Source: Raillietiella orientalis
Lineage: Eukaryota
Assembly (NCBI GenBank): GCA_036172245.1
Contig: JAYWIR010000013.1
Location: 248,001-312,000 of the forward strand
DNA: 64,000 nt
Direction of reading: 5' to 3'
Position 1 is the stretch's first letter, and every line of letters begins with the position of its first letter. The position numbers were made by a program, and so were the translations under genes. Below are positions 51,782 through 52,066 of the stretch, piece after piece. The notes beneath the pieces are model-generated. The model was not told the DNA's origin and made no database searches. It saw nothing but the letters and a program-made list of their open reading frames with translations.

Positions 51782-52066
51782 GAGTCTACTCCCGGCTGGC
51801 TTGCGAGATTCAGTTCGTCCGGTCCATGGGCTACTACTTCATCCAGATATACATCCCGTCCTCCCTGATCGTCGTCATATCCTGGGTTTCCTTCTGGTTG
51901 AACCGGAACGCCAGTCCTGCGAGGGTGTACCTAGGAGTGACCACCGTGCTCACCATGACTACCCTCATGTCCTCGACCAACTCGTCCCTGCCGAAGGTCT
52001 CCTATATCAAGTCCATCGACATCTACCTAGGCGCGTGCTTCGTCATGGTCTTTGCGTCCCTAATAG
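51782..52066 (+). CDS. Rdl: Rdl-like exon 7 (loop C, M1, M2, M3)
   Basis: [97 protein letters not shown] anion-selectivity motif present. Confidence 0.97.

What the first reader, a model, noticed from the sequence alone, without database searches (positions are those of the whole stretch)
51928..51930. Tyrosine at the M2 2' position (PARVYLG), the dieldrin/fipronil/picrotoxin resistance site
Seen: TAC where RDL has Ala. Established: 2' (Drosophila A301/A302) lines the inner pore, and A-to-S/G/N changes reduce channel-blocker sensitivity. I do not recall an aromatic residue here in RDL. TAC is two changes from Ala but one from Ser or Asn codons. PAR, T6' and L9' are intact. Inference: a naturally blocker-insensitive subunit, perhaps an obligate heteromer because five Tyr would crowd the pore.
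Basis: partly seen in the sequence, partly recalled or inferred. Interest (0 to 1): 0.85.

Follow-up and report, generated by a model that had tools for sequence, protein, structure and literature searches.

The report
RDL GABA channel with pore tyrosine
An arthropod gene for the GABA-gated chloride channel that dieldrin, fipronil and picrotoxin block carries a bulky tyrosine at the pore position where small changes cause resistance, and springtails turn out to carry the same residue.

Summary
TAC at 51928-51930 is in frame in a cleanly spliced exon (51782-52066, + strand). That exon belongs to an intact multi-exon RDL-type GABA-gated chloride channel gene at about 35.2-54.0 kb. The codon puts Tyr at M2 2'. 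The -2'PAR0', T6' and L9' residues are unchanged.

The gene sits inside the arthropod RDL clade and is 75-77% identical to insect RDL over 292 aa. A spliced exon E|F junction appears in an RNA contig of a near-identical organism, but that contig stops 81 nt before the codon. No reads of the source genome could be found.

Tyr at 2' is not unique. All five named springtail RDL proteins carry it (Folsomia, Allacma, Orchesella cincta, and two loci of O. dallaii). So do several unnamed proteins and two metagenome contigs. No paper found in the searched library mentions this.

The window gene is not nested in the springtail clade and lacks their M1 intron. A sister relation is not rejected.

Most likely this is a functional RDL ortholog whose 2' Ser became Tyr by one transversion, with reduced pore-blocker binding. 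That effect is inferred, not shown. The obligate-heteromer idea gains no support. It is a new variant of a known kind, of moderate interest.

The parts
35216..35292 (+). RDL exon A (start of the extracellular domain, ...RVRPNYGG). The signal-peptide exon upstream was not found.
   Evidence: tblastn of insect and collembolan RDL; AG/GT borders; open spliced frame
35946..36013 (+). RDL exon B (68 nt, equivalent of insect exon 3). There is no second copy in the window.
   Evidence: single tblastn hit
41736..41962 (+). RDL exon C (ligand-binding domain, contains the YFRQFW loop D motif)
   Evidence: Pfam PF02931 E 2.8e-16
46338..46420 (+). RDL exon D (Cys-loop, two Cys 13 residues apart)
   Evidence: Pfam PF02931 E 7.4e-07
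49607..49744 (+). RDL exon E (138 nt, equivalent of insect exon 6). There is no second copy in the window.
   Evidence: Its 3' end is joined to exon F in an RNA contig of run X1.
51782..52066 (+). RDL exon F: loop C end, M1, M2 and most of M3
   Evidence: Pfam PF02932 E 3.1e-29; only one copy in the window
51928..51930 (+). TAC = Tyr at M2 2' (the finding)
52426..52520 (+). Start of RDL exon G (end of M3, EYASVGY..., start of the intracellular loop). The 3' border is not determined; the coordinate given is only the extent of the homology.
   Evidence: AG acceptor; tblastn. No donor with a consensus score of 5 or more out of 7 lies between 52440 and 53784.
53784..53950 (+). RDL last exon H (M4 and C-terminus, stop TGA at 53948-53950)
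   Evidence: Pfam PF02932 E 3.5e-06, 27.9 bits against a cut-off of 28.1

Best explanation
The window holds a functional, probably orthologous RDL gene: the homomer-forming GABA-gated chloride channel subunit of arthropods. It comes from a non-insect arthropod lineage that is poorly represented in databases. In this lineage the 2' pore-lining residue of M2 is Tyr.

The most economical history is Ser (TCC, the state in the M2 sequences most like this one) to Tyr (TAC) by one C-to-A transversion. This either happened in an ancestor shared with Collembola or happened independently.

Five phenol side chains at 2' would narrow and fill the cytoplasmic end of the blocker pocket, which lies between 2' and 9'. 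Picrotoxinin, cyclodienes and fiproles should then bind poorly. The M1/M3 interface site of isoxazolines and meta-diamides would be left as it is, because the M3 Gly is kept. Conductance and desensitisation are probably altered too.

Shown: the codon, the intact gene, RDL membership, spliced RNA of exons E and F in a near-identical organism, and Tyr fixed in Collembola.

Inferred: the Ser-to-Tyr route, reduced blocker sensitivity, and function as a homomer.
For: Gene integrity:
- Eight exons have AG/GT borders, and exons A-F give a 292-aa open spliced frame.
- The Cys-loop, loop D, loop B and loop C motifs and the PAR motif are present.
- Pfam LBD and TM domains are found.

RDL identity:
- The window lies inside the arthropod RDL clade, SH-aLRT 99.
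- It is 75-77% identical to six of seven pterygote RDLs compared over 291 aa (Bombyx 74%) and 36% identical to an amphioxus GABA-A beta.
- The best PDB match is the RDL homopentamer 9she.

Expression:
- A 162-nt contig of RNA run X1 matches 51781-51847 with 1 mismatch.
- Its preceding 30 nt equal the end of exon E apart from 2 letters, both third-codon positions. This is the predicted E|F splice.

Tyr is a natural state:
- 7 of 302 related proteins have Tyr, and all 7 are collembolan-type.
- Three further cluster members also have Tyr, including a second O. dallaii locus.
- Two metagenome contigs have Tyr, using TAT and TAC.

Ser as precursor:
- The M2 sequences closest to the window (93% over 42 aa) read [13 protein letters not shown].
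- Organism A's contig has TCC there.

Effect of 2' changes:
- S, N, Q and P at 2' give picrotoxin resistance in edited flies, and Q/Q is viable (PMC10482695, sections 5 and 7).
- Fipronil LD50 was 450 ug/L in F. candida against 0.113 ug/L in a stonefly, the two ends of the range in one review (PMC9209362, passage).
Against: - No read-level confirmation of the TAC codon exists.
- The RNA contig does not reach the codon, and it comes from a metatranscriptome of a near-identical organism, not provably the same one.
- The first exon and the intracellular-loop exons are unresolved. No good donor follows exon G, so the full reading frame is not proven.
- The rest of the genome could not be searched for a second RDL copy.
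- No electrophysiology or binding data exist for any 2'Tyr RDL.
- The F. candida fipronil figure has many other possible causes, such as uptake, metabolism or GluCl as target.
- Five Tyr in a homomer could in principle occlude the pore.
Confidence: 0.55

Rival explanations
1. The Tyr subunit is a specialised paralog. It works only, or mainly, in heteropentamers with a canonical Ala or Ser RDL subunit encoded elsewhere in the genome. It dilutes blocker sensitivity the way Rdl2/Rdl3 copies do in moths, aphids and ladybirds.
For: In insects, natural 2' substitutions are tied to Rdl duplications, and heteromers with intermediate sensitivity are documented (PMC10482695, sections 5 and 7). The window gene has a long end branch of 0.93. 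A ring of five Tyr is bulky.
Against: No second RDL exon set lies in the 64 kb. All 5 named collembolan RDL proteins, including both O. dallaii loci, carry Tyr, and none with Ala or Ser was seen. That is weak evidence, because the lists were cut at 120-150 rows. Q/Q flies with five Gln are viable (PMC10482695, section 7).
Confidence: 0.2
2. Tyr at 2' is functionally near-neutral for blockers. The side chains point away from the lumen and pharmacology is ordinary, so this is simply lineage drift at a tolerant site.
For: Collembola are killed by fipronil at some dose (PMC9209362, passage). No functional data exist.
Against: Every 2' substitution tested so far changes blocker sensitivity (PMC10482695, sections 5 and 7). 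The site is otherwise restricted to small or polar residues: A, S, G, Q, T, N and single V, C, M, H in 302 proteins.
Confidence: 0.12
3. TAC is an assembly or base-calling error, or a rare heterozygous allele of the sequenced individual. The species' normal codon is TCC (Ser).
For: Ser and Tyr are one base apart. No reads could be laid on the codon. The closest M2 sequences have Ser.
Against: Substitution errors in finished assemblies are rare. Tyr at this site is independently real in Collembola, encoded by both TAT and TAC. The surrounding exon is flawless.
Confidence: 0.06
4. The gene is an unexpressed or decaying copy.
For: The first exon was not found, and no consensus donor follows exon G.
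Against: All conserved exons are open with canonical splice sites. The spliced E|F junction is seen in RNA. Seven of the 13 differences from organism A's contigs fall on third codon positions, and at least two of the amino-acid differences (Phe/Leu, Ser/Gly) are residues usual in insect RDL (table 3, read).
Confidence: 0.03

Closest known systems
Insect RDL (Drosophila Rdl; solved homopentamers 9she, 9sho, 9sio, 9siq)
   Same: Same exon layout around M1-M3, with one exon for M1, M2 and most of M3. Exons A-F are 75-77% identical over 291 aa to six of seven pterygote RDLs compared. The M2 exon is 87-90% identical. M2 from -2' to 19' is identical except at 2'. The Cys-loop, the GABA-loop motifs and the C-terminal ...ADDLVLLEE are kept.
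   Different: 2' is Tyr instead of Ala. The M1 'IPSG' is 'IPSS'. 20' and 21' are Ser-Ser. No alternative copies of the exon-3 and exon-6 equivalents lie in the window; that such copies are conserved in insects is recalled, not tested. The gene lies outside the insect cluster in the tree.
Collembolan RDL (Folsomia candida P0080, Allacma fusca P0141, Orchesella cincta P0045, O. dallaii P0048 and P0442)
   Same: Tyr at 2' with the rest of M2 conserved, and the same M1 'IPSSLIVV'. A clade of the window plus Collembola is not rejected (AU p 0.21).
   Different: The flanks differ: AAPARVYLGI...NKALPKISYV in Collembola against [10 protein letters not shown]...[10 protein letters not shown] here. Identity over exons A-F is 71-75%. 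The collembolan rows form a clade without the window, SH-aLRT 96. The collembolan-type loci L001 and L002 have an intron inside M1 and introns of tens of bases, whereas the window has no M1 intron and introns of 0.4-5.7 kb.
Duplicated insect Rdl2/Rdl3 copies with natural 2' S, N, Q or P(+6'I) (Guo et al. 2023, PMC10482695)
   Same: A natural, evolutionarily old replacement of the 2' residue by a larger one. Those replacements confer picrotoxin and cyclodiene insensitivity.
   Different: Those residues are not aromatic and occur in extra gene copies beside a 2'Ala copy. Here, and in Collembola, no Ala copy has been seen. Tyr was not among the residues that survey reported (sections 5, 7 and 8 read; Insecta only; supplementary tables not seen).
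Tetranychus urticae RDL1 with 2'His and 6'Ile (Dermauw et al. 2012, as cited in PMC4261083)
   Same: A ring-bearing side chain at 2' of a natural RDL in a non-insect arthropod. It is linked by those authors to low fipronil sensitivity. A protein with this M2 (P0405) was in the survey.
   Different: His, not Tyr. It is combined with 6'Ile, whereas 6'Thr is kept here. It is one of three RDL genes in the mite.

Membership tests
Cys-loop (pentameric) ligand-gated ion channel | Extracellular ligand-binding domain with two Cys 13 residues apart, followed by M1-M3, a loop and M4 | tested here: met
   C-x13-C is found in exon D. Pfam PF02931 matches exons C and D, and PF02932 matches exon F. Exon H scores 27.9 bits, just under the 28.1 cut-off. 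M4 homology is seen by tblastn.
Anion-selective GABA/Gly/GluCl branch | Pro-Ala-Arg at -2' to 0' of M2, and 6'Thr, 9'Leu | tested here: met
   [14 protein letters not shown] is read directly and aligned to RDL, GlyR and the GABA-A beta subunit.
Arthropod RDL | Phylogenetic placement with RDL rather than with other GABA, Gly or GluCl subunits | tested here: met
   The 21 arthropod RDL rows including the window form a clade, SH-aLRT 99. Trichinellid UNC-49-like, annelid and amphioxus beta-like rows lie outside it (quick tree). LCCH3, GRD and GluCl were not included as separate rows.
Arthropod RDL | GABA-binding loop motifs (loop D YFRQFW, loop B IEIESFGY, loop C Y-S-R) | tested here: met
   All three are found in the spliced translation. 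Which residues bind GABA is recalled from the literature, not tested.
Arthropod RDL | Forms GABA-gated homopentameric chloride channels | not testable with these tools
   This needs expression and electrophysiology. A pentamer cannot be modelled with the complex tool, which allows at most 4 copies.
Arthropod RDL | Complete open reading frame from signal peptide to stop | tested here: inconclusive
   Exons A-F and H are intact. The first exon was not found. The 3' border of exon G and any further loop exons are unresolved.
Blocker-resistant RDL variants (2' substitutions) | Non-Ala residue at 2' | tested here: met
   Tyr.
Blocker-resistant RDL variants (2' substitutions) | Measured loss of sensitivity to picrotoxin, cyclodienes or fiproles | not testable with these tools
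   No functional data for 2'Tyr were found. Searches gave no relevant paper.

The most novel reading that the evidence does not exclude
A ring of five tyrosines at 2' is the normal working state of the sole RDL channel in whole clades of soil hexapods: Collembola and the lineage of this window, whether by common descent or by convergence from 2'Ser. This would make these animals constitutively insensitive at the target site to picrotoxin-like natural toxins, cyclodienes and fiproles. It would also show that an anion-selective Cys-loop pore can conduct with aromatic side chains at its narrowest point.
Probability: 0.3. Interest if true: 0.7.

Novelty: new variant of a known kind. Interest (0 to 1): 0.5.

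Why it matters
The 2' residue of RDL is the classic target-site resistance position for cyclodienes and fiproles. It also forms part of the narrow cytoplasmic end of the pore.

A natural Tyr there has not been functionally described in any paper I could find. It would extend the known range of tolerated residues from small or polar ones to a large aromatic one.

Folsomia candida, which carries it, is a standard soil ecotoxicology test species (recalled). A built-in target-site difference would therefore affect how fiprole and cyclodiene toxicity data from springtails are extrapolated to other soil arthropods.

For channel biophysics, a conducting pore with five Tyr at 2' would be a useful natural experiment on the selectivity filter and the desensitisation gate.

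Against this, the gene is otherwise an ordinary RDL. The residue is already present, unremarked, in public springtail proteins, and no function has been measured.

Tried and rejected
- Read-level check of the codon. The look-up of sequencing runs on the exon gave only two runs with small shares, 0.13 and 0.08 of 24 words. When laid, RNA run X1 covers 51781-51847 only. DNA run X2 is a different organism, under 90% alike, with no cover at 51924-51987. Neither run says anything about TAC.
- Own genome. None is held, so a second RDL copy could not be sought.
- Taxon of the window. The DET1 exon at 738-2021(-) has no relative above 59% identity, and no collembolan is among the best 120. The RDL tree leaves the window in a polytomy. 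The AU test neither supports nor rejects a clade with Collembola. The organism stays unidentified beyond 'arthropod, not within sampled insects or Collembola'.
- First exon. It was not searched for systematically.
- Donor of exon G. No phase-1 donor scored above 3 of 7, and no donor scored 5 or more anywhere in 52440-53784.
- Scan of JGI metagenome contigs for any P-A-R-V-Y-L-G-[VI]-T-T-V-L-T-M coding pattern. Two contigs matched, both collembolan-type and neither of the window's type.
- Literature. The terms A301Y, A302Y, A296Y, A2Y, A282Y and A285Y gave nothing on RDL among the 20 of 329 papers listed. 'A2 Y' with 'GABA receptor' gave 0 papers. 'Rdl' with 'springtail' gave 9 papers, 8 of them listed; by title none is about springtail RDL, and in the one opened 'springtail' stands only in another context. 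'Folsomia' with 'resistance to dieldrin' gave 1 irrelevant paper. 'RDL', 'Collembola' and 'GABA receptor' gave one paper that uses collembolan sequences only in trees.
- Earlier findings of this scan. None exist for this genome, this sequence or these words.
- Pentamer modelling.
- Pfam scan of all long ORFs. Abandoned, because 191 ORFs of 110 aa or more in GC-rich DNA are mostly spurious.

Full report
**Observation.** The letters at 51928-51930 are TAC. They lie in the frame that is open from 51760 to 52098. That frame reads through M1, M2 and most of M3 of a Cys-loop anion channel.

The exon runs from 51782 to 52066. It follows an AG at 51780-81 and precedes a GT at 52067-68. Counting the Arg of Pro-Ala-Arg as 0', the Tyr is 2'. 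The other M2 positions from -2' to 19' match the solved RDL chain 9she_A, which has Ala there. That alignment covers 93 columns without a gap, E 8e-50.

**The gene.** tblastn with seven RDL proteins found one set of exons on the + strand between 35.2 and 54.0 kb, and nothing elsewhere in the window. All borders I located are AG/GT.
- Exon A: 35216-35292
- Exon B: 35946-36013
- Exon C: 41736-41962
- Exon D: 46338-46420
- Exon E: 49607-49744
- Exon F: 51782-52066
- Exon G: starts at 52426
- Exon H: 53784-53950, ending in TGA

Exons A-F splice into 292 codons without a stop. The translation contains a Cys-x13-Cys loop, the loop D, B and C motifs of RDL, and the PAR motif. Pfam finds the ligand-binding domain in exons C and D and the transmembrane domain in exon F. 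Exon H falls just under the cut-off.

Two parts are unresolved. The signal-peptide exon was not found. The 3' end of exon G is also open: no donor scoring 5 or more out of 7 lies between 52440 and 53784, and no phase-compatible donor is better than 3 of 7. The intracellular loop must therefore use weak or additional splice sites that only cDNA can show.

There is no second copy of exons B, D, E or F in the window. So there is no alternative M2 exon here.

**Family.** The M2 exon is 87-90% identical to insect RDL. Exons A-F compare as follows:
- 75-77% identical to six of seven pterygote RDLs (Bombyx 74%)
- 71-75% to collembolan RDLs
- 55% to a trichinellid UNC-49-like protein
- 36% to an amphioxus GABA-A beta subunit

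In a quick maximum-likelihood tree of 26 rows, the window lies inside the arthropod RDL clade (SH-aLRT 99). Its position there is an unresolved fork with three other groups: a collembolan clade (5 rows, SH-aLRT 96), an unnamed Ser-type protein, and a myriapod+tick+insect group.

**Expression.** No run holding the stretch was found. Two runs held small shares of its words. Laying them gave one useful result.

RNA run X1, a metatranscriptome, has a 162-nt contig. Its last 67 nt match 51781-51847 with one mismatch. Its preceding 30 nt equal the end of exon E except for two third-position letters. This is the predicted E|F splice junction, seen in RNA of the same species or a very close one.

The contig stops 81 nt short of the 2' codon, so it says nothing about TAC.

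Run X2 is a different organism, under 90% alike, with two M1-M2 exon copies. One of them reads Ser (TCC) at 2'.

**How unusual is Tyr at 2'?** I tallied the residue in every related protein returned by three searches. That made 302 proteins, after leaving out the 120 DET1 rows.

The strict M2 pattern matched 313 times in 281 proteins: A 171, S 59, G 40, Q 20, T 10, Y 7, N 3, and V, C, M 1 each. The 21 proteins without a strict match were read with looser patterns. They showed A, S, G, T, Q, N and one His, and no Tyr.

All seven Tyr proteins share the collembolan flanks. Four are named: Folsomia candida, Orchesella cincta, O. dallaii and Allacma fusca. These come from Entomobryomorpha and Symphypleona.

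Cluster look-up added three more Tyr proteins. One is a second O. dallaii protein from a different contig, 60% identical to the first overall and with different flanks. So 5 of 5 named collembolan RDL-like proteins have Tyr.

A scan of JGI metagenome contigs for any coding of P-A-R-V-Y-L-G-[V/I]-T-T-V-L-T-M found two contigs. Both are collembolan-type, one using TAT and one TAC.

The window's own version, with Ser before PAR, Val after Gly and different post-M2 residues, was not found anywhere.

**Is the window a springtail?** Probably not one of the sampled kinds.
- The collembolan rows form a clade without it.
- The two collembolan-type genomic loci carry an intron inside M1 and have introns of tens of bases. 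The window has no M1 intron and has introns of 0.4-5.7 kb.
- GC across the gene region is 0.46-0.61.
- The neighbouring DET1 exon has no relative above 59% identity, and no collembolan is among its best 120.

On the other hand, forcing the window and Collembola into one clade costs only 1.39 log-likelihood units (AU p 0.21). Shared ancestry of the Tyr is therefore as open as convergence.

The M2 sequences most like the window's (93% over 42 aa) have Ser at 2'. Ser TCC to Tyr TAC is one transversion, so Ser is the likely precursor. This is an inference.

**Mechanism.** The 2', 6' and 9' residues form the site for picrotoxin, cyclodienes and phenylpyrazoles (PMC10482695, section 5, read). In edited flies, S, Q, N and P at 2' raise picrotoxin survival. 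Q/Q flies are viable but heat-sensitive, and N/N is lethal (sections 7 and 8, read).

A spider-mite RDL1 with 2'His and 6'Ile has been linked to low fipronil sensitivity (PMC4261083, passage citing Dermauw 2012).

By extension, Tyr should hinder these blockers at least as much. It should leave the M1/M3 interface site unchanged, because the M3 Gly is retained. That this Gly is the isoxazoline and meta-diamide determinant I take from the abstract of PMC10337980 in the listing.

One circumstantial datum fits. In a review's list of 96-h fipronil LD50 values, Folsomia candida was the least sensitive arthropod, at 450 ug/L against 0.113 ug/L for a stonefly (PMC9209362, passage). Other explanations for that figure are easy to imagine.

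Effects on conductance and desensitisation are expected, because -2' and 2' form the narrow end of the pore. This is recalled knowledge, not tested here.

**The heteromer idea.** Nothing here supports it. No small-residue RDL of Collembola turned up, and both O. dallaii loci have Tyr. This evidence is weak, because hit lists were cut at 120-150 rows and no eukaryote genome could be searched. I keep the idea as the main rival at 0.2.

**Novelty.** I found no paper mentioning Tyr at 2' of RDL or of any GABA receptor. The broad insect survey lists S, N, Q, P and G only, and covers Insecta only (PMC10482695, sections 5, 7 and 8; its supplementary tables were not seen and might list outgroups).

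The residue is nevertheless sitting in public springtail protein records. The finding is therefore a new variant of a known kind: an otherwise canonical RDL with an undescribed aromatic 2' residue, now seen in a second lineage.

**Verdict.** Interest is moderate at 0.5. It would rise if electrophysiology showed a conducting, blocker-insensitive five-Tyr pore.

Noticed in passing
window 738-2021 (-): A large exon of a DET1 (de-etiolated 1) homolog: Pfam PF09737, E 1e-108. Its best relatives are only 53-59% identical (orthopterans, nemerteans, molluscs). This shows the source organism has no close relative in the protein collection.
   Followed up: partly
window 48560-48646 (+): A U6 snRNA match (Rfam RF00026, 83 bits, model positions 1-85 of 105) inside the RDL intron between exons D and E. 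It lacks the 3' end of the model, so it may be a truncated copy.
   Followed up: no
window 38302-38649 and 38917-39264: A 348-nt inverted repeat, 97% complementary with 267 nt between the arms, in the intron between exons B and C. It looks like a foldback or MITE-like element.
   Followed up: no
proteins P0048 and P0442 (Orchesella dallaii): Two RDL-like proteins of one springtail species, from different contigs. Both have Tyr at 2' but their flanks differ. This suggests an RDL duplication in which both copies keep Tyr.
   Followed up: partly
L001 about 1150-1330 and L002 (reverse strand), metagenome contigs: Collembolan-type RDL genes with an extra intron inside M1, between ...IYIPSS and LIVVISW..., and very short introns. 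One uses TAT and the other TAC for the 2' Tyr.
   Followed up: partly
window 51862-51864 and 51982-51987: The M1 position that is Gly in Drosophila 'IPSG' is Ser here, as in Collembola and some hemipterans. 20' and 21' after M2 are Ser-Ser instead of Ala-Ala. A20'S was reported to be without effect in a Varroa-based study (PMC4261083, highlights).
   Followed up: no
run X2 (organism A) laid on window 51786-52056: A different organism has two diverged copies of the M1-M2 exon on separate contigs. One reads Ser (TCC) at 2'. This may be an RDL duplication or a pair of alternative exons.
   Followed up: no
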